64,000 bases of DNA from a bacterium (GTDB taxonomy: Bacteria > Electryoneota > Electryoneia > Electryoneales > Electryoneaceae): the NCBI GenBank assembly GCA_963675295.2, contig CAXXKJ010000002.1, positions 896,001-960,000 of the forward strand. Direction: 5' to 3'. The first letter of the stretch is position 1, and every line of letters begins with the position of its first letter. A program made the position numbers and the translations under genes. Shown here piece by piece: positions 33,372 through 57,916 of the stretch. The notes beneath the pieces were generated by a model that had not been told where the DNA came from, ran no database searches, and worked only from the letters and a program-made list of their open reading frames with translations.

Positions 33372-33413
33372 TCTCACATCTCACATCACCAGTCACAAGA
33401 CTCAAGTCTCAGG
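33372..33413. repeat. Degenerate heptamer array (TCTCACA-like)
   Basis: Six 7-bp units abutting the stop codon at 33421. Confidence 0.55.
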
Positions 33414-33420
33414 ACTGCTT

Positions 33421-40636: not shown

Positions 40637-41581
40637 TCAGCCCATGTGCTGCGCCTGTACCTGCTGCTCACCTTCTTCCTTCATCTTCAGATCGTCAGCG
40701 GACTGGAAGATCTGGTTGTAGATGCCTTCGAACAGCACGTACACCGTCGGCTCGTTGGCATACTTGACGAAGTAGCGGCGTTCGTTGTTCGGATCGAGGT
40801 AGAAGCTGAGGTCGAGACGGCTGCCGTTGTCGATGCTGATCTTGACCGTGTTGTCCGGCTTGTCGAAGTCGATGGAGGCGTATTCCTCCTCGGTCGGGAA
40901 GGCCGAGGTCCGCAACCGAGCGATCTGCGACTGCAGGCGTGTCGCGGCGGCGTCGTCGACCGGCGTAACCTCACCCTTGACGGTGAATGTCCACGCGCCG
41001 TCATTACGTGCGAGGTTCCACTCGTCGGTTTCAATCCCGACGACCTGGTGCTGCTGGTATGGGAACATCTCCTTGTCGCGCCAGTTCTCGACATTCCGGC
41101 TCAACTGCATCTTGTAGGTGCCGTTGATGAGGTACACGTTCGGCTTGTCCGCGTAGCGCGCGTAGCTCTGGCGGTAGGATTCGGCCGCCTTGCCGAGCAC
41201 GACGCTGCTAACCTTCTCACCCTGACGGATGGTGAGGGAGACGCCGGCGGTGTCGAGTTCGAACTCGGGCCAGCGGTCCTGCTTGCTGGTTACCTCGGAT
41301 TCGATCCGCATCTCGCCCAGTTTTTCGAGCAACTGGGAGACGTACCGCCGGTTGGCGCGGTAGTTGATCGGGTTGGTGATGTCCCACGACCCGTCATCGC
41401 GATGGGTCAGGGTAATTGTCGAACCGCCGTTCATGATTTCCAGTTCGGAAATCTTCGTGGTGTCGACATCAACGAGGTAGTTTTCCTCGGCTGTGGGCAC
41501 ACTGGACTGGTCCATCAGGACGAAAATCACCCAGAGGACGAGGACCACACCAACGAGGATGAGTAGCTGTTTCATCTTCAT
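40637..41581 (-). CDS. DUF4340-domain protein
   Basis: N-terminal anchor, two repeats, WRDK motif; follows a GldG-like gene. Confidence 0.75.
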   Translation of the reverse strand: MKMKQLLILVGVVLVLWVIFVLMDQSSVPTAEENYLVDVDTTKISELEIMNGGSTITLTHRDDGSWDITNPINYRANRRYVSQLLEKLGEMRIESEVTSKQDRWPEFELDTAGVSLTIRQGEKVSSVVLGKAAESYRQSYARYADKPNVYLINGTYKMQLSRNVENWRDKEMFPYQQHQVVGIETDEWNLARNDGAWTFTVKGEVTPVDDAAATRLQSQIARLRTSAFPTEEEYASIDFDKPDNTVKISIDNGSRLDLSFYLDPNNERRYFVKYANEPTVYVLFEGIYNQIFQSADDLKMKEEGEQQVQAQHMG

Positions 41582-43185
41582 CCGTTCAGCTCCTCCGAGT
41601 AGCGGCGGTTCCGCCGGATCTGCCAGTAGACGATGCCGAGCAGAATGGCGAGCAGCGGCGGCGCGAACCAGTTGACGTATTTCCAGACCTGCTTCTGCGC
41701 GGTGCTGATTTCCTTCAGCGTGCGCATGGTGAATTCACGGCCACGCAGCGCGATCAGGTCGGTGTCGCCGGCGAGCCAGTCGATGGCGTTGAGCAGCATG
41801 TAGACGTTCGCCGGGTTGGTCAGGTAACCGTCCTGAATGAAGCGGCCGTCACCCATAACGAACATGCGTGTGCCGTCCGGCGCGGTCATGCCGCTGCCGA
41901 CCATGTCCACCGACCCTTCGTCCGTTTCCGTGCCGGCGAATGCAGACTGGAACGGTCCTTCCAGCATCGCGCCAAGCACGACGTGTTCACGGGTGAACAG
42001 GTCGTCCTGCCATTCCTGCGTCGCGTTGATCGTGAACGTGCCCGCCTGCACCAGCGTCCGCGGACCGGAATACATCACCGGGGTCAGGTTGACGTTCTTC
42101 TCGGCGGCATAGGTGGTGTCAACGCTCGACGGGAAGAAGAGGCTCAGCATGTCGATGTTCTCGACGACGATCGCGTTGTCGTTGAACGTGTTCACGTTCG
42201 GGAAGAACGGGTACTTGATGGTGTTCTGAATGGTGAAGAAGCCGCGCCGTTCCTGCACGTTGATCATCGACGAATTGAGGTCGGCGACGAGGTTCGGGTT
42301 GACGACGAAGCCGTAGTTGCGTGTCATCTGATCGAGGCCGAGGCGGTACGCTGTCGCGGTCCCGTTCTGCAGGTCGGCATTGACCGTGGAGAGCAACCAG
42401 GCGACGGAACCACCGTCCATGATGTACTGGTCGATCTTCATCTGGTCTTCTTCGGGGATCGCCTCGGTCGGCGCGACAACCATCAGCACGTCGATGTTGT
42501 CCGGAACGCCCGGCGCGTCGGTCAGGTTGACATTTTCGATCCCGTAGTTGCTCTGCAGCACGTTGGCAAATTGCGAGATACTGCCCGCCTGGGCGCTCAT
42601 GCCCGGCTGCTGCTGTTGCGTCGGATCAGGCTCACCGTGTCCCTGCAGGAAGCCGACGGTCTGCGACTGCTGGTTGGTCAGCCGCTTGATCAGCGAGGTG
42701 ATGTTGTACTCGAGACCGGCCGCGCCCTGCAGCGTCGGGATGGTTTCCTGGCGGTCTTCGTAGAGGAAGACGGCGCCGAGATAGACCTTCTTCAGCTGCA
42801 GTTCATCCTTCTCCCAGACATTTTCCTGGAAGGGTGGGATGCGGTAGTTCTGCGCTTCCTGCTCGAGGGCTTCGTCATTGCCCGGGTCGATGAACTCGTA
42901 GCGGAACTTGCCGCCACCGTACGCCCGATAGCCGGACAGCAGGTCGTTGAGGAACCGTTTGGTATCGTTCAGCTGCGGCGACAGGTTTTCGCTGGCGAAA
43001 ACCTTGACCGTCAGCGGTTCGTCGAGATTTTCCACCACCTGTTTCGAGGCGTCGGACAGGCTGAACAGCTTGTCTTCGGTGAGGTCGAGGCGCATGAAGC
43101 GCGTGTTGGCGATCAGGTTGATGAGGACGAGGATCGCCACCACGAGCAGAATGCCGACCGTGGTTTGAATCTTGGATGCTTTCAC
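41578..43185 (-). CDS. gldG: GldG-family ABC auxiliary component
   Basis: RLDLTEDKLFSLS, GFLQGHGE, DQYIMDGG and LNAIDWL motifs; GTG start. Confidence 0.85.
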   Translation of the reverse strand: MKASKIQTTVGILLVVAILVLINLIANTRFMRLDLTEDKLFSLSDASKQVVENLDEPLTVKVFASENLSPQLNDTKRFLNDLLSGYRAYGGGKFRYEFIDPGNDEALEQEAQNYRIPPFQENVWEKDELQLKKVYLGAVFLYEDRQETIPTLQGAAGLEYNITSLIKRLTNQQSQTVGFLQGHGEPDPTQQQQPGMSAQAGSISQFANVLQSNYGIENVNLTDAPGVPDNIDVLMVVAPTEAIPEEDQMKIDQYIMDGGSVAWLLSTVNADLQNGTATAYRLGLDQMTRNYGFVVNPNLVADLNSSMINVQERRGFFTIQNTIKYPFFPNVNTFNDNAIVVENIDMLSLFFPSSVDTTYAAEKNVNLTPVMYSGPRTLVQAGTFTINATQEWQDDLFTREHVVLGAMLEGPFQSAFAGTETDEGSVDMVGSGMTAPDGTRMFVMGDGRFIQDGYLTNPANVYMLLNAIDWLAGDTDLIALRGREFTMRTLKEISTAQKQVWKYVNWFAPPLLAILLGIVYWQIRRNRRYSEELNG

Positions 43186-43201
43186 GTTGCTTCGTCCTCC
43201 C

Positions 43202-43918
43202 CTACAGGAATTTCCGCTGGATCATCGCGCGGGACGCGAGCAGCAGCGAAATAAAAATTAAACTGAGGAAATAGATGACATCCCGGCTGTCGATCACACC
43301 ACGCGCGATGTTCTGGAAGTGGTAGGTCGAGCTCAGGTACTGGATCACGTCCGCCACCGGCGGCGGGATCACAATCGCCGCGAACACTAGAATCGCCAGC
43401 ACGGCACACAGCGCGAAGCTGAGGATGAAGGCGACGATCTGGTTTTCCGTAAGCGCAGATCCGAGCAGGCTGACCGCGAGGTACGCTCCGCCCAGCAGCA
43501 GCAGTCCGACATAGCCGGCGACGATACCGCCAACCTGGGCGTCACCCAGCGTGATGATCGTGAACGGGTAGAAGAACGTGAACAGCAACGCGACCGCGTA
43601 CAGGCTGAACGCGGCGAGGAATTTGCCGAAGATGACATCGAAATCGCGCACCGGCATGGTGACCAGCAGCTCGAGCGTGCCGCTCTTTCGTTCTTCGCTG
43701 ATCAGTCGCATCGCGATCGCGGGTGCGAAGACGACGAGCAGGAACGGCAGGATGTCGAAGATGCTGCGCATGTGCGCGAGGTTTTCCTTGAACAGGTTCA
43801 AGGTGAAGAACCAGCCGGTGATCAGCAGGAACACCGCCAGCACGATATAGGCTGAGGGGCTGGCGAAATAGCTGCGCATCTCACGGCGCCAGATAGCACT
43901 CACAACGGCCCAGCTCAT
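43202..43918 (-). CDS. gldF: GldF-like ABC-2 permease
   Basis: REMRSYFASPSAY, EERKSGTLELLVT, SALTENQIVA and RGVIDSRD. Confidence 0.85.
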   Translation of the reverse strand: MSWAVVSAIWRREMRSYFASPSAYIVLAVFLLITGWFFTLNLFKENLAHMRSIFDILPFLLVVFAPAIAMRLISEERKSGTLELLVTMPVRDFDVIFGKFLAAFSLYAVALLFTFFYPFTIITLGDAQVGGIVAGYVGLLLLGGAYLAVSLLGSALTENQIVAFILSFALCAVLAILVFAAIVIPPPVADVIQYLSSTYHFQNIARGVIDSRDVIYFLSLIFISLLLASRAMIQRKFL

Positions 43919-44883
43919 GCCGCAGCCTCCCCGGCCATGTTGGCCGTCGCATCGGTTCGTGTCAACGAACGGAAGATGTTTTCGAGCGATTCCACCTTGC
44001 GCGTCATGCCGAGCATCGTCCAACCCTGCGAAACGCAGAGGCGGAAGATGTCGCCGCGCGGGTCGGTGCCCGGTTCGGTGGAAATCTGCAGGCTGACCAC
44101 ATTCGGTTCCGGATCGTCCAGCCGTTCGAGCGATTCAACACCGGCGAGCGCGTTGATCTTCGCGAAATCGTCCGGGTTGATGCCGTGCAACTGCAGGTAG
44201 ATGACCGGCTTACCCTGGAAGCGGTGCTGCAATTCGTCCGGGGTGCCGTCCGCGACCAGCTTGCCCTTGTTGATGATGACAACACGGTCGCAGGTTGCCT
44301 GCACTTCCGGCAGGATGTGGGTGGAGAGGATGACGGTGCGCTCTTTCCCGATCGTCTTGATCAGTTCGCGGATTTCCACGATCTGGTTCGGGTCGAGACC
44401 GATGGTCGGTTCGTCAAGGATCAGCACCTTGGGCTCATGCAACATCGCCTGAGCGAGGCCGACACGTTGCCGGTAGCCCTTCGACAGCTTGCTGATGCTC
44501 TGGTCGAGCCGGTCTGCGAGGCCGGTGACGTCGACCATCTTCTTGATCCGCGCCTTCTGCTCGTTAGCAGGAATCCGGCGTACCTCGGCGACATGCTTGA
44601 GGTACTCGTAGACGGTCATGTCGAGATACAGCGGCGTGGTTTCGGGCAGGTAGCCGATCATCTCGCGTGTGACCAGCGATTCCTCGACGACGTCATGTCC
44701 GTCAATGGTAATCTTGCCGGCATTGGGCGGATAGTACCCGGTAATCACCTTCATGGTGGTAGATTTACCGGCGCCGTTTGGCCCGAGGAAGCCGAGAATC
44801 TCGCCGCGCGCGACATCAAAGCTGATGTCGTCCACCGCGGGAAAGTTCCCGTACAACTTCTTCAGGTTTTCAATGTGAATCAT
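43915..44883 (-). CDS. gldA: GldA-like ABC ATP-binding protein
   Basis: GPNGAGKST, LSKGYRQR and LDEPTIGLDPNQ. Confidence 0.85.
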   Translation of the reverse strand: MIHIENLKKLYGNFPAVDDISFDVARGEILGFLGPNGAGKSTTMKVITGYYPPNAGKITIDGHDVVEESLVTREMIGYLPETTPLYLDMTVYEYLKHVAEVRRIPANEQKARIKKMVDVTGLADRLDQSISKLSKGYRQRVGLAQAMLHEPKVLILDEPTIGLDPNQIVEIRELIKTIGKERTVILSTHILPEVQATCDRVVIINKGKLVADGTPDELQHRFQGKPVIYLQLHGINPDDFAKINALAGVESLERLDDPEPNVVSLQISTEPGTDPRGDIFRLCVSQGWTMLGMTRKVESLENIFRSLTRTDATANMAGEAAA

Positions 44884-44973
44884 CCGCGTTTCCCCTCCAG
44901 AATTCTTCCGTGGGTTGATTGGTATCTGAAACTGTGGAAAAGCCTTGGTTTTCCAACCCCCTTGCGATGGGCA

Positions 44974-45002
44974 AGGATACGACTTGTACGTCGTATGAAC
45001 AA
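44974..45002 (-). promoter_or_regulatory. Sigma70-type promoter TTGTTC-N17-TATCCT for gldAFG
   Basis: 17-bp spacer upstream of gldA. Confidence 0.4.
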
Positions 45003-45336
45003 GTTCAGCAACGGCTGTCTCGCACAAACTGGTGCCACTCCGGTTTGTCGCCGCTGTAGAATTTCGTCTGTCAAGTGTCTGTCTCGTCGGGCGTGATGCT
45101 GGCGGGGCGCAACGCGGAACCGTGACGTTTGCCTCCCTCAGACGCCAGAACCGTGTGTTGACACATGTGTATGTACGTGGCTTATCGCGGTGAGTTCCCG
45201 GCGCTCCGGGAGACGCTTGTTTATGTTGCCACCTGCTTTTTATGTGAAATGTCTTGCACACTTTTTCAATTACAAAAATACCCGATTAGAGAATCATGTC
45301 GAGCCATGCAGGTCTGAAGGATACAAAGGAGGCGGT

Positions 45337-46287
45337 ATGAGGTCGGACATGATAGTTCCAAGACAGCTAAGAGAGGTTAATTATCCCGAATATTTTGAGG
45401 ACGGGTATCGTATTCTATTTTGCGAAAATACTGAACTTCTGTTGTGGCACTTTCAAAATCTAATTCAGCCAGATCCGATTGCACCGAGGATCATATACAG
45501 GGGACAGGCCAAATCTGAGTGGCAACTTATAGCATCGCTATTCAGAAAAACAATAAACACATCCATCAAAGATATTACTGACATTAGAATCCGTCGCGGC
45601 AAAGATATTGCTAAATGGTTGATAAGGTTGTACAAGATTGAAGAAGAATTAGTTGATAGATACAGATGGGTGTTAAATCAAGCAGGTATAAGTATTCCAT
45701 TTGCCATAGCAGACTATCTTAACCAAGAATATGATAGTATAGAAGAAAGTGACCTGACATATTGGCAGTCTATAGACAGTTTTGAGCTACAATTTTACGC
45801 TTTGGCTCAACATAATGGAATACCTACCAGATTATTAGATTGGACTTATAATCCACTAGTAGCAGCATATTTTGCAGCATCAACCACCATATCTGAATAT
45901 AAACTAAAAAGAAACATGAAAAATTATATTGCGACGGAAACTAAGAATATACCTAATTTTTCTATTTTAGCATTATTTACGGATAATGTAGATAAAACGA
46001 CTTTTGGAACCGATTATAAAAAGAAAATTGATGTTATAGAATGTTCATATACTGATAATTTATATTTATCAGCACAAAAAGGAGTATTTACATATACTAT
46101 TCCTGAATATATGCCTATGAACAAAATATTAGATGATAATGTAATTACTAAGTTTGATATTCCCATAACTGAGGCGTTTCGGTTGCTACGTGTACTATCG
46201 TCATATGGAATAAACGGATCTACTGTTTATCCAGACTATTCAGGTGCAATTAAGCAAATGAAAGAAAGAATGGTGTATCAATGGTAA
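45337..46287 (+). CDS. FRG-domain protein, strongly AT-rich
   Basis: IYRGQ...SLFR, AQHNGIPTRLLDWTYNPLVAAYFA and AQKGVF; SD AAGGAGG. Confidence 0.9.
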   Translation: MRSDMIVPRQLREVNYPEYFEDGYRILFCENTELLLWHFQNLIQPDPIAPRIIYRGQAKSEWQLIASLFRKTINTSIKDITDIRIRRGKDIAKWLIRLYKIEEELVDRYRWVLNQAGISIPFAIADYLNQEYDSIEESDLTYWQSIDSFELQFYALAQHNGIPTRLLDWTYNPLVAAYFAASTTISEYKLKRNMKNYIATETKNIPNFSILALFTDNVDKTTFGTDYKKKIDVIECSYTDNLYLSAQKGVFTYTIPEYMPMNKILDDNVITKFDIPITEAFRLLRVLSSYGINGSTVYPDYSGAIKQMKERMVYQW

Positions 46288-46334
46288 TCCAATATGTGAA
46301 TATATTAGAGTATACAACTAGCGGAATTCGAGAG

Positions 46335-47333
46335 TTATAATCGTGCGATCAACCTGACCTGATCCACAATCTCGCACCTGGCTGTGCCTGAGCAGGACAG
46401 TGTTGATCCGTCAACATTCACAGGGAATGGACGTCCGTCCGCGGGTTTGATTTCGAGACGTTTCTTGATTGAATAGGCCTCGAACCCCCATCGCTCCGGA
46501 GCGTGTTGAATGCTGGAATCCCACGCCTTTTTGATCTGCGTTGCCATGTTGAAGATGCCGATATCGCGGATGCCGAACAGGTAGATCTCGCCGGAGCCGA
46601 GTGGTTTGCCTTGTGCGAACGGCAGGTTCGGCCCGAGGTCCCCATTGACCAGGATCAGCGCCTGGTAGCGGCCGGAGATCCTGGTTTCGCCATCAATCCG
46701 GAAGTGCCACAGTCGGGTGCCGGACGCGAACCGGCCAAAAAGGGTTTTCACCGTGGCGAGGCTCATGCCGACGAAAAACGGTCCGAGGTCGCCGAACAGT
46801 TGGCTCAGCACACCTTTGTAGTACTTGATGAACCGGTTCTCGGTGAAGTAGGGCACCTCACCGAAAATTTCCAGACCGCCGTAGCCAAGCATGCGTTTCA
46901 TGGTGGTGTTTGGGCCGGACGATGCTACCTCGATGACATCGCAGGGAATGTGTGTATCGTTGCGAATCGCTTCGGCGAACACACGGATCGCGTCCTCGAT
47001 CTCGTCGGGCATGTTCAGCACTTTACCCAGCAGGTCGGCGGAACCTTTCCGCAGGAAGCCGATTCGCAGATCTGACTTTTCGGCGTTGGCGTCGAGGCAG
47101 CCTTCGACGACGGCGTTAAATGTGCCCGAACCACCCGCCGAAATGATCCAGCGTACCCCGGCGTTGACCTGCTCGGTGGCTTGTTGCTTTGCGGCGGCGT
47201 GGCTGTCCTCACTGAACAGAGTGACGTTGCTGAAGCCGTGTTCCTCAAACAGTGGGACGATGCGTTTCACCTTGCCCCAGTCCTGAATCGATCCGGAGAT
47301 GGTGGTGGCGATGACGGCGATTGGATCAGTCAT
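46335..47333 (-). CDS. Diacylglycerol-kinase-family lipid kinase-like protein with an atypical motif
   Basis: SAGGSGTFNAVVEG, GSAD and VNVDG motifs. Confidence 0.7.
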   Translation of the reverse strand: MTDPIAVIATTISGSIQDWGKVKRIVPLFEEHGFSNVTLFSEDSHAAAKQQATEQVNAGVRWIISAGGSGTFNAVVEGCLDANAEKSDLRIGFLRKGSADLLGKVLNMPDEIEDAIRVFAEAIRNDTHIPCDVIEVASSGPNTTMKRMLGYGGLEIFGEVPYFTENRFIKYYKGVLSQLFGDLGPFFVGMSLATVKTLFGRFASGTRLWHFRIDGETRISGRYQALILVNGDLGPNLPFAQGKPLGSGEIYLFGIRDIGIFNMATQIKKAWDSSIQHAPERWGFEAYSIKKRLEIKPADGRPFPVNVDGSTLSCSGTARCEIVDQVRLIARL

Positions 47334-48783
47334 GGTCCGGGTCTCCGGCTGAGCTGGAGCGAACAGCCTGCATGGCGTGTTCGACAACGGTTTCGAGGGG
47401 AGCGTTTCCATTTATGACAGCAGTGCTGATGTCAAGATGCGATCCGAGACAGGCAAGCACACGCAGGTACGATTCACGCAGGCGCGTGAGTTTCTCGACG
47501 TTTTCATGCACCTGCATCTCTTCGCCACGGCTGGCGATGCGTTCACATGCGGTTGCGGGATCTACATCGATCAACAAAATGGTTTCCGGCAGCACCATCC
47601 GGTTCAGCTTCAGCAGCCAGAAGGCTTTCAACTCGGGGTATTCGCTGAACAGCGGGTCGTGCGGACCAGCTTGCTGATCGTTCCCGGTCAAGATGTCTAT
47701 CAGTCGGGCGATGGTTGTTTCATCCGGTGGATCATCACGGTACAACGCGACCCAGGCGAGCAGGTTGAGCAGAGGCGAACCGTCCATGACAATGTGGTCG
47801 GGCGTGTACCAGCGGCGGATTTCGTGGAACAACTGGTTGCGTAGCAGCAGTTCGGTCAGCTTCGGAATCTTGTACAGCTTGAGCGATTTTGCATTCTTGG
47901 CGGCACGATTGATGGCTTCGCGAAAGACATTGGTTCCAAGCGGTTGCAGGGGACGATAGAGTGAGTTGTTGTAGAACTGCAGGGTATCGCTGATGAGGCA
48001 CACGCTCTGGGCAGCGGAAAGTGTCTCGGCGATTGATCTGGAAACGGTACTCTTTCCCGAACCGTCGATTCCGAGAACCGCGATGGTTTGTGCCGCGGCT
48101 TCTTTTTTGCCACGTCGCCGCTGGTAGGACTTGGAGGTCGCCTGTTCCAGATCGCGGAGTGCGGCTTCCAGGTGCTGGGTGATATCGCGGTGCCCTCCAA
48201 CGACGAGTTGCGGGGGACCAACGGCGACAAAATTGGTTAGCGGCAGCATGATCGCCGTCGCCTTGGGCAGAGCTCGTTCCGGGCCTTTCAGGAATACCGG
48301 CACAACGGGAATCGACTTGTACTGGACAACCAGGCGTCCAATGCCACTGCGAAAATGGACGAGTTCTCCGGGCTTGCCGCGTGTTCCCTCAGGAAAAATG
48401 ATCAAGCTGTGCCCGGCCTCCAGCAACTGCTTGAACTCGTCAAACGGGTCGGTCCCACGAGTCGCGGTACCCCGTTCGATCCAGATCGGCTGGTAGAGGA
48501 ATTCAACAGAACGGAACAACCATTTGTAGCGGGCGAAGTACGTGCGTTCTGCCACGGCGTGCGTTCGATCCAGCTGCGGCAGGGTCAGCAGGTTGAACAG
48601 CAGGATGATATCCAGATGGCTGTTGTGGTTGGCAATCAGGATGAACTGGTCGTGTCCGGCCAGATGCTCCCGACCTCGGACATACACACCGAAGAGCAGC
48701 TTCGCCAATGGACGCAAAACGAGGAGATGGATCATCCTGCGCAGGGCACGATGTGCCTTGCCATGTTCAGGCTCGCCTCTCAT
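47326..48783 (-). CDS. Fusion of a PlsC-type acyltransferase and a thymidylate-kinase-like P-loop domain
   Basis: ANHNSHLD and FPEGTRG, then GIDGSGKST, LLIDVDP...ERI..RG and INGN..LE. Confidence 0.8.
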   Translation of the reverse strand: MRGEPEHGKAHRALRRMIHLLVLRPLAKLLFGVYVRGREHLAGHDQFILIANHNSHLDIILLFNLLTLPQLDRTHAVAERTYFARYKWLFRSVEFLYQPIWIERGTATRGTDPFDEFKQLLEAGHSLIIFPEGTRGKPGELVHFRSGIGRLVVQYKSIPVVPVFLKGPERALPKATAIMLPLTNFVAVGPPQLVVGGHRDITQHLEAALRDLEQATSKSYQRRRGKKEAAAQTIAVLGIDGSGKSTVSRSIAETLSAAQSVCLISDTLQFYNNSLYRPLQPLGTNVFREAINRAAKNAKSLKLYKIPKLTELLLRNQLFHEIRRWYTPDHIVMDGSPLLNLLAWVALYRDDPPDETTIARLIDILTGNDQQAGPHDPLFSEYPELKAFWLLKLNRMVLPETILLIDVDPATACERIASRGEEMQVHENVEKLTRLRESYLRVLACLGSHLDISTAVINGNAPLETVVEHAMQAVRSSSAGDPDHD

Positions 48784-49640
48784 CCGAGGAAGTACCGGAG
48801 ATAATGGAAGGTCACCGGCGCCGCGTAGAAGAAGGACCGCAGGTTATCGAGCACCTGTCCCTGGGCCGGAATGAAGGGATCGTCCGCGCCGACGAGATCG
48901 AGTTTGATGTAGCGTCCGGTCAAACGGCCAATCATGGTCAGCATTGGAATCAGGCAGGCGAGAATGATCGAATGATGGAGCGGGATGCCGGTCCATGGCA
49001 TCAAGGCAAGGGCCAAACCGATCGTAATCGGCAGGGGAATCACGTAGATCAGAACCAGCAGTCCAAAGGTGACCCGCCTTCCCCGCCGCATGAGTACGGA
49101 CACCGCATCGCACAATGCCACTAATAGAATCAGCAACATTGGCTGCCAGATCGATACCAGCAACAGGTAGCCGATGTGCGCAATGCAGAAGACGTAGAGA
49201 AACAAGCCGAAGTCGATTGCTCCGATGGAAAAGATCATCCCCCGTGCTTCGCGTCCGCCCATCGCAACAAACATCGGGACCAGCAGGAAGCCATACACCG
49301 GCACCGCGATAATGAACATGCCATACCATTCATCCAGGATGAAGTAGTACTGGAAGGGTATCAGCAGAAACGCGATCCAGATGGCGATGCGATCCTGCGG
49401 TCGGATATCAATCAGCGAGAAGTATTCGCGCAGGGCGAAAAAGGACAGGAGTGCCAGCGTGATCAGGGCGAGGGTCAGTAGGTCAAACTCGGCGAACAGG
49501 ATGGAGAGAAGCAGGAAAAAGGTGTAGTTGACGTACGATCTGCCGGGGATTTCCCTGCCACGCAGGACCAGCACGGTTCTGAGTGCGGTCAGCACTGCGA
49601 ACAGGGCGACAACAACAATCAGGGTAATCCGGGCAGACAT
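48780..49640 (-). CDS. Phosphatidate cytidylyltransferase-like (YnbB/CdsA) membrane protein, degenerate
   Basis: SFFALREY, WYGMFIIAVPVYGFL and IPAQGQVLDNLRS...APVTFH; SD GGAGG. Confidence 0.7.
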   Translation of the reverse strand: MSARITLIVVVALFAVLTALRTVLVLRGREIPGRSYVNYTFFLLLSILFAEFDLLTLALITLALLSFFALREYFSLIDIRPQDRIAIWIAFLLIPFQYYFILDEWYGMFIIAVPVYGFLLVPMFVAMGGREARGMIFSIGAIDFGLFLYVFCIAHIGYLLLVSIWQPMLLILLVALCDAVSVLMRRGRRVTFGLLVLIYVIPLPITIGLALALMPWTGIPLHHSIILACLIPMLTMIGRLTGRYIKLDLVGADDPFIPAQGQVLDNLRSFFYAAPVTFHYLRYFLG

Positions 49641-49861
49641 CTTTCCTCCCCCCCAGGTTGCTGAAAGATGATCGGTTGGCGTGCTTCGAAATATACGACG
49701 GCTGCCAACTGGAAAGGTGATTCATTTCAGTAAGATCGGTTACAGAAGGTGGTTTCCCGGAAATCCTGTTAGGTTAAGGCCGTCAGACGGTATGCTGAGT
49801 TTAAAGGCGAAGTACTTCCAACCCTCTTGTTCGTCGAGTTCCAGTCCCCCATCTTTGCGGC

Positions 49862-50839
49862 ATGGCGACTTTAACCGATCCAGTTTTGCTCCACCTGTGT
49901 GACCAGCTCAATCGTTTTGCGGATGAGCGTGGCTTCACACTTGGGCTGGAGCCTGTTCAATATGGCGTGAAACTGACCCTCAGCGATCCGAATCTTCCAG
50001 ACGACAAGGGCAAACCCGCGACCGCGCGTGGCGTATTGTACCACAGCGTGAAGAAGAAACGGGTCAGCTGGGTGTCGGAAGGCAAGGCGGACCCGGTGCT
50101 CGGGCCAATGCTGAACGAGCGTGTCCAGGCGTTGGTTGGCGCACGGGACCAGAAGGCGGCGGCGAAGAATCCGTCCATTGGCGCGGTGGAGAAGGGGCTG
50201 AAGAGTTGGATCGGCACCGACGAAACGGGCAAGGGAGATCTGTTCGGCCCGTTAATCGTTGGCGGCTTTGTCGCGGACCAGGCGATTGCGAAAGAGTTGA
50301 TCGCGATGGGCGTGCGTGACTCGAAGGAGTTGACCCGTCCCCAGATCGAACGGCTGGCCTCGATGATCCGCAAGCAGTGGCCGGACCGCTGCCATGTGGT
50401 GATGATCTCGCCGAAACGCTACAATGAGATGTACGACGGTTTCGCGCGCCGGGGTGGGATCAACGGTCTGCTTGGCTGGGGGCACGCGACCGCGATCAAG
50501 TCAGCGCTGGAGGGGAAGTATCCACTCGATGGCGCCGTGGTCGATAAATTCGGTGGAGAGCATCGGATCACGCCGTACTTGAAAGGCGCGGATGTGTCCC
50601 TGACCTTACGGTCGAAGGCGGAGTCGAATCCGGCGGTCGCGGCGGGGGCGATTCTCGCGCGGGCGAAGTTCGAGTACGCGTTGGATGATATGGAAAAGCC
50701 GCTCGGGTTTCGTCCGCATCCCGGTGCGAACGGCCCGGCGATGAAGGATTTGAAACGTCTGGCGAAGGAAAAACCGTCCGAGCTGGCTATGTATGTGAAA
50801 ATGCACTTCCGTCCGGTTCAGGCGCTGGCGGGGTTGTAG
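49862..50839 (+). CDS. rnhC: Ribonuclease HIII
   Basis: IGTDETGKGDLFGPL, GVRDSK, DKF and KAES...VAAGAILAR, plus an N-terminal extension domain. Confidence 0.85.
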   Translation: MATLTDPVLLHLCDQLNRFADERGFTLGLEPVQYGVKLTLSDPNLPDDKGKPATARGVLYHSVKKKRVSWVSEGKADPVLGPMLNERVQALVGARDQKAAAKNPSIGAVEKGLKSWIGTDETGKGDLFGPLIVGGFVADQAIAKELIAMGVRDSKELTRPQIERLASMIRKQWPDRCHVVMISPKRYNEMYDGFARRGGINGLLGWGHATAIKSALEGKYPLDGAVVDKFGGEHRITPYLKGADVSLTLRSKAESNPAVAAGAILARAKFEYALDDMEKPLGFRPHPGANGPAMKDLKRLAKEKPSELAMYVKMHFRPVQALAGL

Positions 50840-50886
50840 ATTGACAATGTGTCCGTGTTGTTTGAGCAAGTCGGGTGCTGAATCCC

Positions 50887-50993
50887 GGGGACACTTTGTC
50901 CCCAAAGTGTCCCCACACTTGACGCAGCACGAGAGACGAAAGACCAGAGACGAAAGACTGAAGTCCGCAGACCAGCGACGAGAGACGACCGAA
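50887..50993. repeat. GGGGACAC palindrome plus a (GAGAGAC/GAAAGAC) heptamer array ending just before the lpxB start
   Basis: Palindrome at 50887-50914; nine 7-bp units at 50931-50993. Confidence 0.7.
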
Positions 50994-50996
50994 GAG

Positions 50997-52130
50997 ATGC
51001 ACGTATTCTGGGTGACAGGTGAGAGTTCAGGCGACCGTCACGCGGCGCACCTGATCCGTGAGCTGAAACGGCTGCGGCCGGAGTGGACGCACGGCGGGAT
51101 GGGTGGCGAGGCGATGCGTCGTGAGGGCGTGACCCTCACCGCCGACCTCAAGGAAGCGGCGTTGATGGGCCTGACCGAGGTCATCCGTCACCTGCCACGC
51201 CTGTTCCGGTTGCGCAACCGGCTGATCGACGCGATTGTCGACAGCGGCGCGCAGTTGGTCGTGCTGGTCGATTTTCCCGACTTCAACATGGGTGTCGCCC
51301 GCAGCCTGCGTGTCCGGCTCGGACGTCAGATCCCGATCCTGTACTATGTCAGCCCCCAGGTGTGGGCATGGCGCCGTGGACGCATCAAGACCATCGCGAA
51401 GTTGGTGGACGCGATGGCGGTGTTGTTCCCGTTTGAGGTGGATGTCTACCGTCCGCACGGGCTTGAGACGGTATTCTTCGGCCATCCGCTGGTCGGTGAA
51501 GTGAAGCCGTCCGCGCCGCTGCCGGAGTTGCGGAAACAGTTCGGCCTGCTGGGCGATGAACAGGCGGTGGCGATACTGCCGGGCAGCCGCGAGCAGGAGG
51601 TCCGGCGTCACCTGCCGGTGCAGCTGGCTGCGGTGAAACGGTTGCGCAGCCGGTTGACCGAACCGGTCAAGGTACTGCTCGCGCAGGCGAACACCGTCGA
51701 CCGGCAGCTGCTGGAACAGTTGGCGGCGGGCATTCCGGACGTGACCATTGTCGACAACGCGCGCGATGCGCTCGCTGCGTCCCGGGTCGGCCTGGTCAAG
51801 TCGGGCACGTCCACGATCGAGGCGCTGCTGATCGGCACGCCGTACGTGGTGATGTACATCGTCAGTCCGTTGACCTATCGCATCGCGAAACTGCTGATTC
51901 GCGGTGTGAAGTATATCGCGATGGTGAATGTGCTGGCGAACCGTGAGATTGTGCCGGAACACATCCAGGATGACGCCAACCCGCGCCGGCTGGCGCAGGA
52001 TCTCGAACGCCTCTGGGACAGCGAGGACCGTGACAAGATGACGCAGCGGCTGAAGGACTTGTCCTCATCCCTTGGCGAACCTGGCAGCACCGAGCGGCTG
52101 GCCGAGTGGATGGTGGAACGGTTCGGGTAG
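50997..52130 (+). CDS. lpxB: Lipid-A-disaccharide synthase
   Basis: GESSGD, DFPDFN, YVSPQVWAWR, LPGSR and SGT. Confidence 0.95.
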   Translation: MHVFWVTGESSGDRHAAHLIRELKRLRPEWTHGGMGGEAMRREGVTLTADLKEAALMGLTEVIRHLPRLFRLRNRLIDAIVDSGAQLVVLVDFPDFNMGVARSLRVRLGRQIPILYYVSPQVWAWRRGRIKTIAKLVDAMAVLFPFEVDVYRPHGLETVFFGHPLVGEVKPSAPLPELRKQFGLLGDEQAVAILPGSREQEVRRHLPVQLAAVKRLRSRLTEPVKVLLAQANTVDRQLLEQLAAGIPDVTIVDNARDALAASRVGLVKSGTSTIEALLIGTPYVVMYIVSPLTYRIAKLLIRGVKYIAMVNVLANREIVPEHIQDDANPRRLAQDLERLWDSEDRDKMTQRLKDLSSSLGEPGSTERLAEWMVERFG

Positions 52131-52292
52131 TGCGCAGCGGCTAAAACTTCCGCATCGGCCCCACCACTTCGAGAATTCCGGCTCATGTCTTCCTGAGATT
52201 ATTCGTTTGGTTCTCCCAACAAGCTGCCAATCCGTTCCATGTGCCCTATCTTTGCGATTGCTTTCCAGCACGTTAGCCAAGAGGGGGTTTTT

Positions 52293-54068
52293 ATGACACG
52301 CGTATTCACTGTGGTTCTGATTCTTCTCGCCATTGCTTCCACCGTGCCAGCCCAACCGCCAGATGTCCTTTGGACGACCATGGTTGACGATCCGGATGGA
52401 TCGCAGCAATTCGAGTCCGTGGTCCATGCGTCCGACGGGTCGATATTCGCATGGGGCCGTGACTATGTCGGGACCATCGATCCCGGCTACCTGTTCAAGT
52501 TTAACGGGGACGGCGAACTGCAGTGGTCGAGAACGTACGACGCGTTACCGCTGGTGCTGGAAGGTGGGACGATCATATCAGATGGCGCGGACGGTGTGTA
52601 TGTCTGCGGGGAAGCGTGGGGGCCGGACATCAAGCTGGCCCATCTGGATGCCAACGGTGACGCCATCTGGACAAGCCTGGACCCGAACTATGAACTGAGC
52701 GCCGATGTGGAAACGATGCTGCAGCTGGCGGACGGGGGCTTTGTAGTCGCCTGCGCGACCGACTCATCCTATTCCGGCCCGGATGGGGTGTCGTTGTCTT
52801 TCTTTGCTCCGGACGGCAACTATCAGCAGACGACCATGTATGATTTCGAAACCTCGTATCTGGATGTGAATTCGATCATCCAGTTACAGGATGAGACGCT
52901 GGTCGTCGGCGGCAGGAACGGGCATGATGACGAAGCGTTCGTGATGCGAGTGGAACCCGATGGCACCCTGCTCTGGCTAAATACCTGGTACTCCTGGCAA
53001 ACCGTCGAGATCAATGACCTCGTCGCGTTACCGGACGGCAACTTTGCCTTCTGCGGCCATTACGACGACAGCTGGGTTGGGGTGATGACGCCGGACGGCG
53101 AGATGGTGTGGGAACAACTCGGGACGCTGAGCGGGACCGCAGTGACGGTATCTCCCGCTGGCGGATTGATTTTCACGCTTGCGTCAACTGTCAAACACAC
53201 AGATGTGCATGGAAACCTGTTGTGGCAGGAATCAGTTGGCGGAATGCCGTATGATTCAAGATTCTACAGCGTTTGTGTGACGGAAGAGGCCGGGATCATC
53301 GTCGCCGGGGGATGTGGACTGGACGATCTGCTGATCGTGTCCCGGTTCGAGGATGAGACAATTCCGCAAATCAGCCTCACCCTGTATCCACAGAGCAGTA
53401 CAGTGATTCCGGCGTCCGGCGGAACGCTGGCATTTGCTGCGCAGGTGGAGTTGAATTACCCGGATCCAGTCGTTTGCCATGGTTGGACGCGGGTTCGGTT
53501 GCCGAACGGTGAGTCCATCGGTCCGCTGTTTCACAGCCCACTGAATCTGCATCCGGGCGAATCCTGGTTTGCCGGGGGAGCGTTGACTGTCCCCGCCTAC
53601 GCGCCTGAGGGGGCGTACGAGCTGGTTGGGATCCTCGGTTTCTATCCGAACCATCCGTTGATCGTTGATGAGCTGCCGTTCACGAAGGAGGCAGGCTGGG
53701 ATGTCACCCGACCGGTAGGACCGGATGATTTCTCCGGGTCCTTCCCCAACCGTGAACAGCCGCTGGGCAATCCAGGTTACGACGACCTGGCTGCCCTGCC
53801 CGACATACCTGTGCTGGGCGAGCTGTACCCGAACCCGACGAACGGGCGGTCGTCGCTGACGATCACGTTGCCGGAAGCAGGCATGTTGCGGGCGGAACTG
53901 TATGATGTCACCGGACGATTCGTGGCGACCGTGTTCGACGGGACGGTCTCCGCCGGAAACCAGATGATCGCGGTTGAGACCGATGGGCTCGCGTCGGGTA
54001 CGTACCTGTTGCGGGTCAGCGTACCGGGCCAGCTTGATCAGACACGGCGGCTGGTGTTGTTGAAGTAG
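52293..54068 (+). CDS. Secreted beta-propeller, Ig-like domain and T9SS C-terminal domain
   Basis: Signal peptide; DG...W repeats; IPASGG...LPNG...PFTK domain; YPNPTNG...SGTYL...LVLLK. Confidence 0.75.
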   Translation: MTRVFTVVLILLAIASTVPAQPPDVLWTTMVDDPDGSQQFESVVHASDGSIFAWGRDYVGTIDPGYLFKFNGDGELQWSRTYDALPLVLEGGTIISDGADGVYVCGEAWGPDIKLAHLDANGDAIWTSLDPNYELSADVETMLQLADGGFVVACATDSSYSGPDGVSLSFFAPDGNYQQTTMYDFETSYLDVNSIIQLQDETLVVGGRNGHDDEAFVMRVEPDGTLLWLNTWYSWQTVEINDLVALPDGNFAFCGHYDDSWVGVMTPDGEMVWEQLGTLSGTAVTVSPAGGLIFTLASTVKHTDVHGNLLWQESVGGMPYDSRFYSVCVTEEAGIIVAGGCGLDDLLIVSRFEDETIPQISLTLYPQSSTVIPASGGTLAFAAQVELNYPDPVVCHGWTRVRLPNGESIGPLFHSPLNLHPGESWFAGGALTVPAYAPEGAYELVGILGFYPNHPLIVDELPFTKEAGWDVTRPVGPDDFSGSFPNREQPLGNPGYDDLAALPDIPVLGELYPNPTNGRSSLTITLPEAGMLRAELYDVTGRFVATVFDGTVSAGNQMIAVETDGLASGTYLLRVSVPGQLDQTRRLVLLK

Positions 54069-56508: not shown

Positions 56509-57171
56509 ATGAACGAGCGGCTGCAATACATACTCGCGGATTATGTCGCGCCGTCGCTGGTGCGCGGGCTGGCGTCCACATTGCGGATGCAGATCGTGGA
56601 CGGTCACAACCTCGAAGCCGCGAAGGATGCGAAGGGCCATTACCTCATCGCTTGCCTGCACGGGCGGATGTTCCTCCCGGTCTGGCAACACCGGAGGGAC
56701 GGGGTGACGACGCTGGTTTCGCGCAGCCGGGACGGTGAACTGGTCGCTCGCCTGGTTCACAAGTTGGGGCACAACACGGTACGTGGGTCGAGCCACCGTG
56801 GCGCGCGGGAAGGGTTGCGCGAAATGGTCGAAGCGGGCAAGCACAGCATCCTCGGGATGATGGTGGACGGTCCGCGCGGCCCACGTGAAGACCCGAAGAT
56901 GGGCACCATCGCGATCGCACGGATGACCGGGCTGACGATCCTGCCGATGACCGCGTCGGCCGTACCGAACTGGACGTTTGGTTCATGGGACAAGTTCCAG
57001 CTGCCGAAACCGTTCGCGAAGGCGTACGTTTTGTATGGCGAGCCGCTCAAGGTGCCGAAGACCGCGAAGGGCGCGGAGGCGATGGAGGAGCTGCGGCTTG
57101 AGCTGAGACGTCGGCTGGTGGCGTTACGTGAACGCGCTGATCGTATCGCGTCGGGGGGCGAACGTGTATGA
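56509..57171 (+). CDS. DUF374 lysophospholipid-acyltransferase family (LpxJ-like)
   Basis: LVSRSRDGE, VRGSS, DGPRGP and SWDKFQLPKPF. Confidence 0.85.
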   Translation: MNERLQYILADYVAPSLVRGLASTLRMQIVDGHNLEAAKDAKGHYLIACLHGRMFLPVWQHRRDGVTTLVSRSRDGELVARLVHKLGHNTVRGSSHRGAREGLREMVEAGKHSILGMMVDGPRGPREDPKMGTIAIARMTGLTILPMTASAVPNWTFGSWDKFQLPKPFAKAYVLYGEPLKVPKTAKGAEAMEELRLELRRRLVALRERADRIASGGERV

Positions 57172-57910: not shown

Positions 57911-57916
57911 GTGCCC

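What the first reader, a model, noticed from the sequence alone, without database searches (positions are those of the whole stretch)
46335..49640. Coupled three-gene lipid operon with a PlsC-nucleotide kinase fusion: candidate undescribed nucleotide-lipid pathway
Seen: three minus-strand genes with overlapping stop/start codons encode a CdsA/YnbB-like membrane protein, a PlsC acyltransferase fused to a P-loop kinase, and a DAG-kinase-like protein. Known: PlsC and DAG kinase both yield phosphatidic acid, CdsA activates it with CTP, and ynbB-type genes often sit beside acyltransferases. A TMK-like fusion plus a DAGK partner is not an arrangement I recognise. Inference: a dedicated module making or remodelling an unusual phospholipid or nucleotide-lipid. 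Two of the four domains have altered catalytic motifs, so non-canonical chemistry or a scaffold/sensor role is possible.
Basis: partly seen in the sequence, partly recalled or inferred. Interest (0 to 1): 0.75.

Follow-up and report, generated by a model that had tools for sequence, protein, structure and literature searches.

The report
Conserved lipid operon with re-tooled enzymes
Three tightly packed genes, found together in several bacterial phyla, pair an intact lipid acyltransferase and an ATP-using kinase with two lipid-enzyme relatives whose usual catalytic residues are systematically replaced, which points to an undescribed way of making a phosphorylated membrane lipid without CTP.

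Summary
Three minus-strand genes at 46335-49640 overlap stop-to-start. They encode a CdsA/YnbB-fold membrane protein, a PlsC-type acyltransferase fused to a TMK-like P-loop kinase, and a SphK/DgkB-fold protein.

The trio is a real, selected unit. All 7 of 7 full-length loci recovered from reference genomes keep the same gene order with unrelated flanks. These come from Zixibacteria, three Gemmatimonadota, Thermoanaerobaculia, Kiritimatiellales and one unnamed bacterium. Each protein has hundreds of metagenomic homologues.

The module derives from the widespread ynbB-acyltransferase pair. The acyltransferase motifs and the kinase P-loop and LID are invariant. The membrane protein has lost the CDS signature and a cytoplasmic loop and carries a different conserved motif. 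The DAGK-like protein has Ser for the general-base Asp in 31 of 31 relatives. The kinase lacks TMK's acceptor site. Two natural single-chain fusions join the TMK-like and DAGK-like parts.

CTP activation to a nucleotide-lipid is therefore unlikely. My best hypothesis is an inference, not a demonstrated result. It proposes a CTP-independent, ATP-driven module that phosphorylates twice and acylates once, giving a DGPP-like lipid pyrophosphate held by the re-tooled CdsA fold.

My searches of the paper library found no description of it. The complex prediction could not be run.

The parts
49645..49649 (-). GGAGG ribosome-binding site, 4 nt upstream of the gene 1 ATG
   Evidence: Read directly from the sequence. 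The sigma-70 and terminator scans gave nothing above shuffled expectation in 46100-50000.
48780..49640 (-). Gene 1: 286-aa polytopic membrane protein. It is a full-length YnbB/CdsA-fold homologue with a re-tooled active-site region.
   Evidence: Pfam CTP_transf_1, 30.8 bits. No NCBIfam family. No PDB sequence match. Profile-profile comparison against 8 true YnbB proteins: probability 100%, E 4e-44, 279 aligned columns. Hydrophobic segments run along the whole length. 315 homologues.
48837..48887 (-). Remnant of the CDS signature (residues 252-268): A-D-D-P-F-I-P-A-Q-G-Q-V-L-D-N-L-R. The family consensus is [ED]x4PGRGQxxDNx[KRQ].
   Evidence: Column counts over 31 relatives: P 29, G 27, H 1 (R 23), G 31, second G 0 (Q 27), D 31, R 0 (N 28), final D 0 (K 21). 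The motif definition comes from PMC7018664.
47326..48783 (-). Gene 2: 485-aa fusion of a PlsC-type acyltransferase and a TMK-like P-loop kinase.
   Evidence: AF2 model pLDDT 82.7, pTM 0.80. Fold matches to TMK (TM 0.71 normalised to the target) and to PlsC 5KYM (0.62).
48139..48783 (-). Acyltransferase domain (residues 1-215), including an N-terminal helix with one hydrophobic segment (residues 17-35).
   Evidence: PF01553, E 2e-22. Match to T. maritima PlsC 5KYM, E 2.6e-11, residues 9-192. Hydrophobic segment.
48610..48630 (-). HX4D motif of the acyltransferase (N52-H-N-S-H-L-D58).
   Evidence: Invariant in 25 of 25 aligned sequences. F130-P-E-G and R135-G are also invariant, and T134 is nearly invariant.
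47329..48111 (-). TMK-like P-loop kinase domain (residues 225-485).
   Evidence: PF02223, E 1.9e-11. 316 representative clusters at E<=1e-3. The profile matches TMK only at the P-loop and the C-terminal third.
48046..48072 (-). Walker A / P-loop, G238-I-D-G-S-G-K-S-T246.
   Evidence: G, D, G, G and K are invariant in 18 of 18 sequences, including distant relatives. The LID residues R415, R419, Q424, H426 and E427 are also invariant.
46335..47333 (-). Gene 3: 332-aa SphK/DgkB-fold (DAGK_cat) protein.
   Evidence: PF00781, E 3e-12. AF2 pLDDT 82.1, pTM 0.81. Best fold match is SphK1 3VZB, E 2.7e-18, TM 0.70, followed by bacterial DgkB-type kinases. 839 homologues.
47121..47135 (-). G67-G-S-G-T71, in place of the GGDGT motif.
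   Evidence: Aligned to GGDGT of DgkB. S69 is invariant in 31 of 31. It is Ala in the fusions P0170 and P0189 and Gly in L079.

Best explanation
The trio is a self-contained membrane-lipid module that evolved from the ynbB (CdsA paralogue)-acyltransferase gene pair. I propose that it works without CTP.

**Proposed mechanism (all steps inferred).**
1. The SphK/DgkB-fold protein and the TMK-like P-loop kinase act as a coupled pair. They put two phosphates in a row on a lipid (lipid-OH to lipid-P to lipid-PP), using ATP.
2. The fused PlsC domain adds the second acyl chain at the lyso stage (LPA-like to PA-like).
3. The re-tooled CdsA-fold protein has lost the CTP-side elements. It keeps the membrane cavity and two acidic positions, and binds the phosphate or pyrophosphate head of the diacyl lipid at the membrane face.
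4. The predicted product is a diacylglycerol-pyrophosphate-like lipid. This would be an ATP-made counterpart of the P-P-linked DAG lipids that CdsA and YnbB make (CDP-DAG, GlcNAc-PP-DAG).

**Shown.**
- The three genes are conserved together and kept in the same order.
- All three genes are under purifying selection.
- The acyltransferase motifs and the kinase P-loop and LID motifs are intact.
- The CDS signature and the general-base Asp have been systematically replaced.
- Natural single-chain fusions join the TMK-like and DAGK-like parts.
- The module descends from the ynbB-acyltransferase pair.

**Inferred.**
- Every substrate and the product.
- Which kinase acts first.
- That the proteins form a complex.

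**Confidence.** The figure given applies to the specific two-phosphorylation, pyrophosphate-lipid mechanism. I would put the general statement (a conserved, CTP-independent lipid module with an active acyltransferase and an active P-loop kinase) at about 0.7.
For: **1. Unit of selection.**
- 7 of 7 full-length loci, from at least four phyla, have CdsA-like, fusion and DAGK-like genes in that order. Their flanks share no family (28 flanking ORFs scanned).
- The DAGK-like gene was found in 0 of the other 73 loci.
- dN/dS for the closest pair is 0.23, 0.29 and 0.20 for genes 1, 2 and 3.

**2. Origin.**
- 58 of 70 acyltransferase-only relatives have a CdsA-like gene directly upstream. In 8 of 8 sampled loci this is a strong CTP_transf_1 match (E 1e-61 to 1e-73). 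CDP-OH_P_transf lies upstream in 4 of 8, and ynbC/ynbD-like genes lie downstream in Enterobacter.
- An E. coli plasmid copy carries matching product names: phosphatidate cytidylyltransferase, lysophospholipid acyltransferase family protein, and a bifunctional alpha/beta hydrolase/methyltransferase.
- Trio-type acyltransferase domains (32 of 103 tips) and trio-type CdsA-like proteins (38 of 97 tips) are each monophyletic, with support 0.98 and 1.0. The CdsA-like stem is the longest internal branch of its tree (1.37 against a median of 0.09).

**3. Active parts.**
- NHNSHLD, FPEG and RG are invariant in 25 of 25.
- G.DG.GK, R415, R419 and Q.HE are invariant in 18 of 18, including relatives at 26-29% identity.

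**4. No CTP chemistry.** See the CDS signature counts and the missing SP.KT..G loop. D178, D248 and D265 are kept in 31 of 31, and an acidic residue at position 253 in 24 of 31.

**5. Kinase acceptor side.** The kinase acceptor side is not TMK-like. The profile matches TMK only at the P-loop and the C-terminal third. DRY is D-G-x-P. Invariant basic residues R288, K296, K305, K308 and R315 would suit an anionic acceptor (inference). Transfer to a phosphomonoester is the canonical chemistry of the NMP-kinase fold (established knowledge).

**6. Coupling of the two kinase-like parts.**
- P0170 (587 aa) and P0189 (631 aa) are single chains. Their N-terminal parts match the window's kinase domain (E 7.5e-21 and 3.7e-15).
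- Their C-terminal parts are 40% identical to gene 3 over its whole length (E 2e-79 and 4e-76).
- In L079 a DAGK_cat gene overlaps the start of a gene with a TMK-like N-terminus.

**7. The missing Asp.** In SphK1, the best fold match, Asp81 is the general base that deprotonates the lipid hydroxyl (PMC9045371, passage seen). Replacing it with Ser, Ala or Gly removes the base and a negative charge. That change would suit a phosphate acceptor (inference).

**8. Ancestral chemistry.** CdsA and YnbB make P-P-linked DAG lipids (PMC6362211 and PMC7018664, passages seen).
Against: - No substrate or product was tested, and nothing here shows that the proteins touch. The complex prediction never ran.
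- To my knowledge (recalled) DGPP has not been reported as a bacterial lipid. The papers I saw name only plants, yeast and parasites (abstract of PMC8774204).
- The P-loop fold also includes hydroxyl kinases. dNK-type structures score nearly as well as TMK, so the P-loop domain may phosphorylate an OH.
- A DAGK-fold protein without its general base may simply be inactive.
- No phosphatase or transferase that would use a lipid pyrophosphate is conserved next to the trio.
- The acidic positions kept in the window's subfamily are not kept in the Gemmatimonadota and Kiritimatiellales copies (L002, L003, L005). The membrane protein's site is therefore not uniformly conserved.
Confidence: 0.33

Rival explanations
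1. Two-part lipid kinase plus acyltransferase that stops at phosphatidate (salvage). The DAGK-fold protein is a non-catalytic lipid-binding subunit that lifts MAG or DAG out of the membrane. The P-loop domain phosphorylates the hydroxyl, and the fused PlsC domain acylates LPA to PA. The CdsA-fold protein is only a membrane dock. The logic resembles that of FakB presenting a fatty acid to FakA (recalled).
For: - The general-base Asp is missing in 31 of 31.
- Single-chain TMK-like::DAGK-like fusions exist.
- dNK-type hydroxyl kinases are close structural neighbours of the P-loop domain.
- The SphK1-like fold includes extra helices at residues 157-204 carrying many invariant residues.
Against: - It does not explain why a lipid-kinase fold that keeps its Gly-rich nucleotide loop would need a second ATP-binding domain.
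- It does not explain why the CdsA-fold protein keeps a conserved alternative motif rather than decaying.
- It does not explain the purifying selection on all three genes.
Confidence: 0.25
2. PlsC and the DAG kinase both feed phosphatidate to a working CdsA, which activates it with CTP (or another NTP) to a nucleotide-lipid. The TMK-like domain handles the nucleotide.
For: - Gene 1 passes the Pfam gathering score for CTP_transf_1 (30.8 against 24).
- It is a full-length YnbB homologue.
- The P-loop is of the TMK type, G-x-D-G-x-G-K-S-T.
Against: - The CDS signature residues H, second G, R and final D are present in 1, 0, 0 and 0 of 31.
- The SP.KT..G loop is absent.
- No CDP-alcohol transferase lies beside the trio, although one does in 4 of 8 sampled ynbB loci.
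- TMK's acceptor region does not match.
- The NCBIfam dTMP-kinase score is 41 against a cut-off of 83.
Confidence: 0.07
3. Only the acyltransferase is catalytic. The P-loop domain is an ATP-sensing switch, and the two altered proteins are regulatory or scaffold pseudo-enzymes that tune acylation to energy or membrane state.
For: Three of the four domains lack a family-defining residue.
Against: - The P-loop, the Walker-B-like Asp and both LID arginines are invariant down to 26% identity. That pattern is typical of an enzyme that turns over.
- The replaced motifs are themselves conserved.
Confidence: 0.12
4. The same machinery acts on a non-glycerol amphiphile, such as a sphingoid base, a ceramide-like lipid or an alkylglycerol, rather than on MAG, DAG or PA.
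For: - The best fold match of gene 3 is sphingosine kinase 1, ahead of DgkB and YegS.
- A bacterial dihydrosphingosine kinase of this fold is known (PMC9045371, abstract and passages seen).
- The host phyla are mostly uncultured, and I know of no lipid data for them (recalled).
Against: - The acyltransferase is nearest to the LPA acyltransferase models (TIGR00530, E 5e-14, against lyso-ornithine-lipid models at E 4e-7).
- The module descends from a ynbB-type phosphatidate-handling pair.
Confidence: 0.12
5. The module is a housekeeping dTMP kinase fused by chance, or a mobile or defence cargo that has nothing to do with membrane lipids.
For: - A foreign FRG/PDC-S15 gene lies next door, with GC 0.35.
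- The kinase domain weakly matches the PADLOC VakA model (E 2.2e-9).
Against: - The fusion and both partners are conserved together across phyla.
- There is no full-length match among 72,556 plasmid records (0 of 180 matching records cover 80% or more of the query) and no match among 50,697 phage records.
- The trio's GC3 of 0.67-0.74 lies within the host range.
- The FRG gene is absent from the other loci.
Confidence: 0.02

Closest known systems
ynbB (CdsA paralogue) with its neighbouring lysophospholipid acyltransferase, as in ynbA-ynbB-(AT)-ynbC-ynbD clusters of Enterobacter, Vibrio and Colwellia and on an E. coli IncF plasmid
   Same: - Same two-gene core in the same order (membrane CdsA-fold gene, then acyltransferase).
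- Full-length homology of gene 1 to YnbB (E 4e-44).
- The acyltransferase domain is 27-42% identical.
- The pair is present in 58 of 70 acyltransferase-only loci.
   Different: - True YnbB keeps KD..PGHGG..DR.D and SP.KT..G (8 of 8) and makes CDP-DAG (PMC7018664). The trio protein lacks these.
- The trio has no ynbA, ynbC or ynbD.
- It has gained a fused P-loop kinase and a DAGK-fold gene.
PlsC, 1-acyl-sn-glycerol-3-phosphate acyltransferase (T. maritima structure 5KYM)
   Same: HX4D and FPEGTR motifs, N-terminal helices and fold.
   Different: It carries a roughly 260-residue kinase at its C-terminus. Its NCBIfam scores are below every equivalog cut-off.
Thymidylate kinase and deoxynucleoside kinases (NMP-kinase fold)
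   Same: TMK-type P-loop with Asp, LID arginines and overall fold (TM about 0.7 normalised to the target).
   Different: - The middle ~135 residues, which bind dTMP in TMK, have no match.
- DRY is D-G-x-P.
- The domain is about 60 residues longer.
- Invariant basic residues lie on long inserted helices.
Sphingosine kinase 1, DgkB and YegS lipid kinases (DAGK_cat)
   Same: Two-domain fold (TM 0.70 to SphK1) and a Gly-rich loop.
   Different: The general-base Asp is Ser, Ala or Gly. The C-terminal motif reads D-G-S in the window, where I recall D-G-E in the family. NCBIfam lipid-kinase scores are at most 35 bits against cut-offs of 118 or more.
Phosphatidate kinase activity of plants and yeast, which makes diacylglycerol pyrophosphate
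   Same: It is the reaction I propose for the module (phosphomonoester lipid plus ATP gives lipid pyrophosphate).
   Different: It is known only as an activity. [quoted passage not shown] No sequence exists to compare with, so this is a functional analogy only.

Membership tests
CDP-diacylglycerol synthase (CdsA/YnbB, PF01148) | Overall fold and domain match | tested here: met
   Pfam 30.8 bits against a gathering score of 24. hhalign against 8 YnbB proteins: probability 100%, E 4e-44, 279 columns.
CDP-diacylglycerol synthase (CdsA/YnbB, PF01148) | CDS signature KDX5PGHGGX2DRXD (PMC7018664) | tested here: not met
   The window reads A-D-D-P-F-I-P-A-Q-G-Q-V-L-D-N-L-R. Over 31 relatives: H 1, second G 0, R 0, final D 0; an in-register D in 2 of 31.
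CDP-diacylglycerol synthase (CdsA/YnbB, PF01148) | Cytoplasmic loop N-D..Q..W-G-K....S-P.K-T..G (invariant in 8 of 8 YnbB) | tested here: not met
   Only the Asp (D178) remains. The loop is shortened and unrelated in sequence.
PlsC / LPLAT acyltransferases (PF01553) | HX4D catalytic motif and FPEGTR motif | tested here: met
   N52-H-N-S-H-L-D58, F130-P-E-G and R135-G are invariant in 25 of 25. Aligned to 5KYM.
PlsC / LPLAT acyltransferases (PF01553) | LPA as acceptor and acyl-ACP or acyl-CoA as donor | not testable with these tools
   Needs an enzyme assay. NCBIfam scores are below all equivalog cut-offs.
Thymidylate kinase (PF02223, TIGR00041) | P-loop G-x-[DE]-G-x-G-K-[ST] and LID arginines | tested here: met
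   Invariant in 18 of 18. Aligned to TMK structures.
Thymidylate kinase (PF02223, TIGR00041) | dTMP-binding core with the D-R-[YHF] motif (motif recalled) | tested here: not met
   D334-G-S-P; D and G are invariant and no Arg is present. Profile positions ~42-176 have no TMK match. TIGR00041 scores 41 bits against a cut-off of 83.25.
DAGK_cat lipid kinases (DgkB, YegS, SphK) | Two-domain fold | tested here: met
   Pfam 46.6 bits against 23.6. Foldseek: SphK1 E 2.7e-18, TM 0.70; DgkB E 4e-16.
DAGK_cat lipid kinases (DgkB, YegS, SphK) | Asp of the GGDGT / SGDG loop, the general base in SphK1 (PMC9045371). That Asp81 lies in this loop is recalled. | tested here: not met
   Ser in 31 of 31, Ala in P0170 and P0189, Gly in L079. 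Aligned to GGDGT of DgkB.
ynbABCD-type operon | CDP-alcohol phosphatidyltransferase (ynbA) and hydrolase/phosphatase (ynbC, ynbD) neighbours | tested here: not met
   None appears among the 28 flanking ORFs scanned at the 7 trio loci, nor in the window.

The most novel reading that the evidence does not exclude
The module is a bacterial phosphatidate kinase / diacylglycerol-pyrophosphate synthase system. This would be the first gene set for an activity whose gene a 2012 review called unidentified. DGPP made with ATP would replace CDP-DAG as the activated phosphatidyl donor or glycan anchor. The re-tooled CdsA fold would act as the DGPP-handling membrane enzyme. Together this would amount to a CTP-independent branch of phospholipid or PP-DAG-glycolipid synthesis in Zixibacteria, Gemmatimonadota, Latescibacteria and allied phyla.
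Probability: 0.13. Interest if true: 0.85.

Novelty: new variant of a known kind. Interest (0 to 1): 0.62.

Why it matters
- All four domains belong to textbook lipid or nucleotide enzyme families. Yet three of them have swapped their defining residues for other residues that are just as conserved, and they travel as one unit across phyla that are mostly uncultured.
- This is the signature of new chemistry built on old folds. Routine annotation hides it: the sources name the three proteins plain 'phosphatidate cytidylyltransferase', '1-acyl-sn-glycerol-3-phosphate acyltransferase' and 'diacylglycerol kinase family'.
- Metabolic reconstructions of these phyla that count gene 1 as CdsA are probably wrong.
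- If the product is a lipid pyrophosphate, the trio would give a sequence handle on phosphatidate kinase.
[quoted passage not shown] That is the half conserved between YnbB and gene 1.

Tried and rejected
- **Complex prediction** (fusion alignment A1 with membrane-protein alignment A4). It was not sent on. The tool was withdrawn. Whether the proteins bind therefore stays untested.
Their organisms and contexts are unknown.
- **IQ-TREE** with bootstraps on the acyltransferase tree timed out. Only the FastTree result is used. HSPs shorter than 150 aa (acyltransferase) or 180 aa (CdsA-like) were left out, and I did not count them.
- **P0131**, an apparent TMK-DAGK fusion at 52% identity, was rejected as evidence. 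Its middle part reads like a frameshift.
- **L079 methyltransferase-like C-terminus.** I tested whether this part of the L079-type TMK-like protein is the YnbC methyltransferase. It is not similar, and its Pfam methyltransferase matches are weak.
- **Promoter and terminator scans** gave no more than the shuffled controls.
- **The two Atlas searches** only returned the same families.
- **PADLOC** gave nothing for genes 1 and 3.
- **Ten paper searches** found no description of the fusion or the trio. One further search was rejected for a slash in the term. Subscription journals are not covered.
- **Shared contig lengths.** 12 contig lengths recur in all three protein-search tables. I noted this but do not use it as a count, because it is only a proxy for a shared contig.

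Full report
**What is there.** On the minus strand of 46335-49640 lie three ORFs.
- Gene 1 runs from 48780 to 49640 (286 aa) and is preceded by GGAGG at 49645-49649.
- Gene 2 runs from 47326 to 48783 (485 aa). Its ATG overlaps the TGA of gene 1 (ATGA).
- Gene 3 is best started at the ATG at 47333 (332 aa), overlapping the stop of gene 2 by 8 nt (ATGACTGA). The database copy of this protein has exactly that length.
- The database copy of gene 2 starts 16 codons later. However, 18 of 25 homologues carry the longer N-terminus.

Pfam assigns the following:
- CTP_transf_1 to gene 1, weakly (30.8 bits).
- Acyltransferase (E 2e-22) and Thymidylate_kin (E 1.9e-11) to gene 2.
- DAGK_cat (E 3e-12) to gene 3.

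No NCBIfam model reaches its cut-off for any of the three.

**It is a conserved unit.**
- The fusion protein has 664 relatives at E<=1e-3 among 7999 scored candidates. All 120 listed carry both Pfam domains at about 470-490 aa. Source names include Zixibacteria, Latescibacterota, Ca. Electryonea and Ca. Hatepunaea.
- Gene 1 has 315 relatives and gene 3 has 839.
Seven of them hold a full-length fusion: Zixibacteria, three Gemmatimonadota, Thermoanaerobaculia, Kiritimatiellales and one unnamed bacterium.
- All 7 of 7 have the CdsA-like gene directly before the fusion and the DAGK-like gene directly after it. The 28 flanking ORFs that I scanned share no family between loci.
- Pairwise dN/dS for the closest pair (L002-L007) is 0.23, 0.29 and 0.20 for genes 1, 2 and 3. 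dS is above 1, so the true ratios are probably lower.
- The trio's GC3 (0.67-0.74) lies within the range of its neighbours.
- No full-length copy was found in 72,556 plasmid records, and none at all in 50,697 phage records.

**Where it came from.**
- The other 73 loci hold a stand-alone acyltransferase of about 210 aa, except L079, which matched the kinase part only.
- In 58 of the 70 loci with enough upstream DNA, a CdsA-like gene lies directly upstream on the same strand. Several of the 12 misses have partial hits.
- In 8 of 8 sampled loci that upstream gene is a strong CTP_transf_1 match (E 1e-61 to 1e-73). A CDP-alcohol phosphatidyltransferase lies upstream in 4 of 8. In Enterobacter the ynbC- and ynbD-like genes follow. 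An E. coli plasmid copy carries matching product names. This is the ynbB neighbourhood.
- Gene 1 aligns with these YnbB proteins over its whole length (probability 100%, E 4e-44, 279 columns).
- In FastTree trees the trio-type acyltransferase domains (32 of 103 tips, support 0.98) and the trio-type membrane proteins (38 of 97 tips, support 1.0) each form one clade. Under midpoint rooting, six Bacteroidota loci are sister to the acyltransferase clade. The stem of the membrane-protein clade is the longest internal branch of its tree (1.37 against a median of 0.09).
- The trio therefore arose once from a ynbB-acyltransferase pair, with a burst of change in the membrane protein.

**What is intact.**
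- The acyltransferase keeps NHNSHLD, FPEG and RG in 25 of 25 sequences. It aligns with T. maritima PlsC, and its model matches that structure.
- The kinase domain keeps G-x-D-G-x-G-K, the Asp after strand 3, R415, R419 and Q-x-H-E in 18 of 18 sequences, down to 26% identity.

**What is changed.**
1. **Gene 1.**
   - The CDS signature KDX5PGHGGX2DRXD (PMC7018664, passages seen) reads [ED]x4PGRGQxxDNx[KRQ] in the family.
   - Over 31 relatives, H is present in 1, the second G in 0, R in 0 and the last D in 0. P, the two other G and the first D of DRXD are present in 29, 27, 31 and 31.
   - The loop that is invariant as N-D..Q..W-G-K....S-P.K-T..G in 8 of 8 YnbB proteins is shortened, and only its Asp remains.
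   - The half shared with YnbB is the N-terminal half, whose role in YnbB is called 'totally unknown' (PMC6362211, passage seen).
   - The replacements are conserved, so this is re-tooling and not decay. The acidic positions are not kept in the Gemmatimonadota and Kiritimatiellales copies.
2. **Gene 3.**
   - GGDGT of DgkB aligns with GGSGT. The Ser is invariant in 31 of 31. It is Ala or Gly in more distant relatives.
   - The model (pLDDT 82) matches sphingosine kinase 1 best (E 2.7e-18, TM 0.70), then the DgkB-type kinases, YegS, AGK and the NAD kinases.
   - In SphK1, Asp81 is the general base (PMC9045371, passage seen). That Asp81 is the Asp of this loop is my recollection.
3. **The kinase domain.** It resembles TMK only at the P-loop and the C-terminal third. 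The ~135 residues between them, which bind dTMP in TMK, have no match. The position of D-R-Y reads D-G-x-P.

**The two kinase-like parts belong together.**
- A search of 1.84 billion representative proteins with the kinase domain alone found 316 clusters at E<=1e-3 and 35 at E<=1e-30.
- Besides acyltransferase fusions and stand-alone forms, two proteins (P0170 and P0189) carry the kinase at the N-terminus and a DAGK_cat domain behind it.
- Their C-terminal halves are 40% identical to gene 3 over its full length (E 2e-79 and 4e-76).
- In a Chloroflexaceae locus (L079) a DAGK_cat gene overlaps the start of a gene with a TMK-like N-terminus.

**Reading.**
- CTP-dependent activation by gene 1 is unlikely, and with it the nucleotide-lipid idea.
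- The conserved coupling of a lipid-kinase fold that has lost its general base with an NMP-kinase-fold domain that has a new, basic acceptor side fits two consecutive phosphorylations of one lipid. The second of these would be the phosphomonoester-to-diphosphate step typical of the NMP-kinase fold.
- The fused PlsC domain would supply the diacyl phosphomonoester.
- The ancestors of gene 1 bind and make P-P-linked DAG lipids (CDP-DAG, GlcNAc-PP-DAG).
- I therefore propose a CTP-independent route to a DGPP-like lipid.
- Which kinase acts first, the true substrates and any physical complex are inferences. The complex prediction could not be run.
- The main rival is a two-part hydroxyl kinase that stops at phosphatidate.

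**Novelty.** Ten searches of the paper library found nothing on the fusion, the trio or a ynbB-derived variant. Subscription journals were not covered. The module is built from known families, so I rate it a new variant of a known kind, of clear interest to lipid biochemists.

Noticed in passing
window 45190-46287 (+): An FRG-domain gene with GC 0.353 and GC3 0.295 in a genome of about 0.60 GC, convergent with the trio. It matches the PADLOC candidate defence family PDC-S15 (E 4e-32). It is likely a recent foreign insertion, and it is not present at the other trio loci.
   Followed up: partly
window 50841-52130, 56509-57171, 57911-59098 (+): The lipid A genes lpxB and lpxK, and a DUF374 gene, lie within 10 kb of the trio, divergent from it together with rnhC (49862-50839). 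This envelope-lipid neighbourhood is not repeated at the 7 other trio loci.
   Followed up: partly
window 31-1098, 11712-14708, 29922-36522, 52239-54068: PorV and four large proteins with type IX secretion C-terminal sorting domains. A gldA/F/G-like ABC set lies at 41578-45261. Together these place the organism in the FCB group.
   Followed up: no
window 12000-18000: A low-GC stretch (0.46-0.49) holds a type IX secretion cargo gene and an 808-aa CotH-kinase / lamin-tail / FlgD-Ig protein (15084-17510).
   Followed up: no
L079 3940-6953 (Chloroflexaceae): A DAGK_cat gene (loop GGGGT) overlaps the start of a 656-aa protein that has a TMK-like N-terminus and a methyltransferase-like C-terminus. 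About a dozen 570-630-aa representatives share that architecture. This may be a second, unexplained context for the kinase pair.
   Followed up: partly
L009 5775-9185 (Brocadiaceae): An MFS + acyltransferase + AMP-binding triple fusion (LplT-Aas-like lysophospholipid recycling) lies directly after a ynbB-acyltransferase pair.
   Followed up: no
L081 (E. coli IncF conjugative plasmid NZ_CP045714.1) 3071-6386: The ynbB-acyltransferase-ynbC-like set is carried on a conjugative plasmid. 180 plasmid records hold an acyltransferase-only relative, 125 of them from Rhizobium.
   Followed up: no
window 47329-48111 (-): The kinase domain gives a weak match to the PADLOC model VakA (E 2.2e-9, over most of the 163-position profile). 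This is probably generic P-loop kinase similarity.
   Followed up: no
window 59249-59322 (+): A tRNA-Met (CAT) gene, the only RNA gene found in the window.
   Followed up: yes
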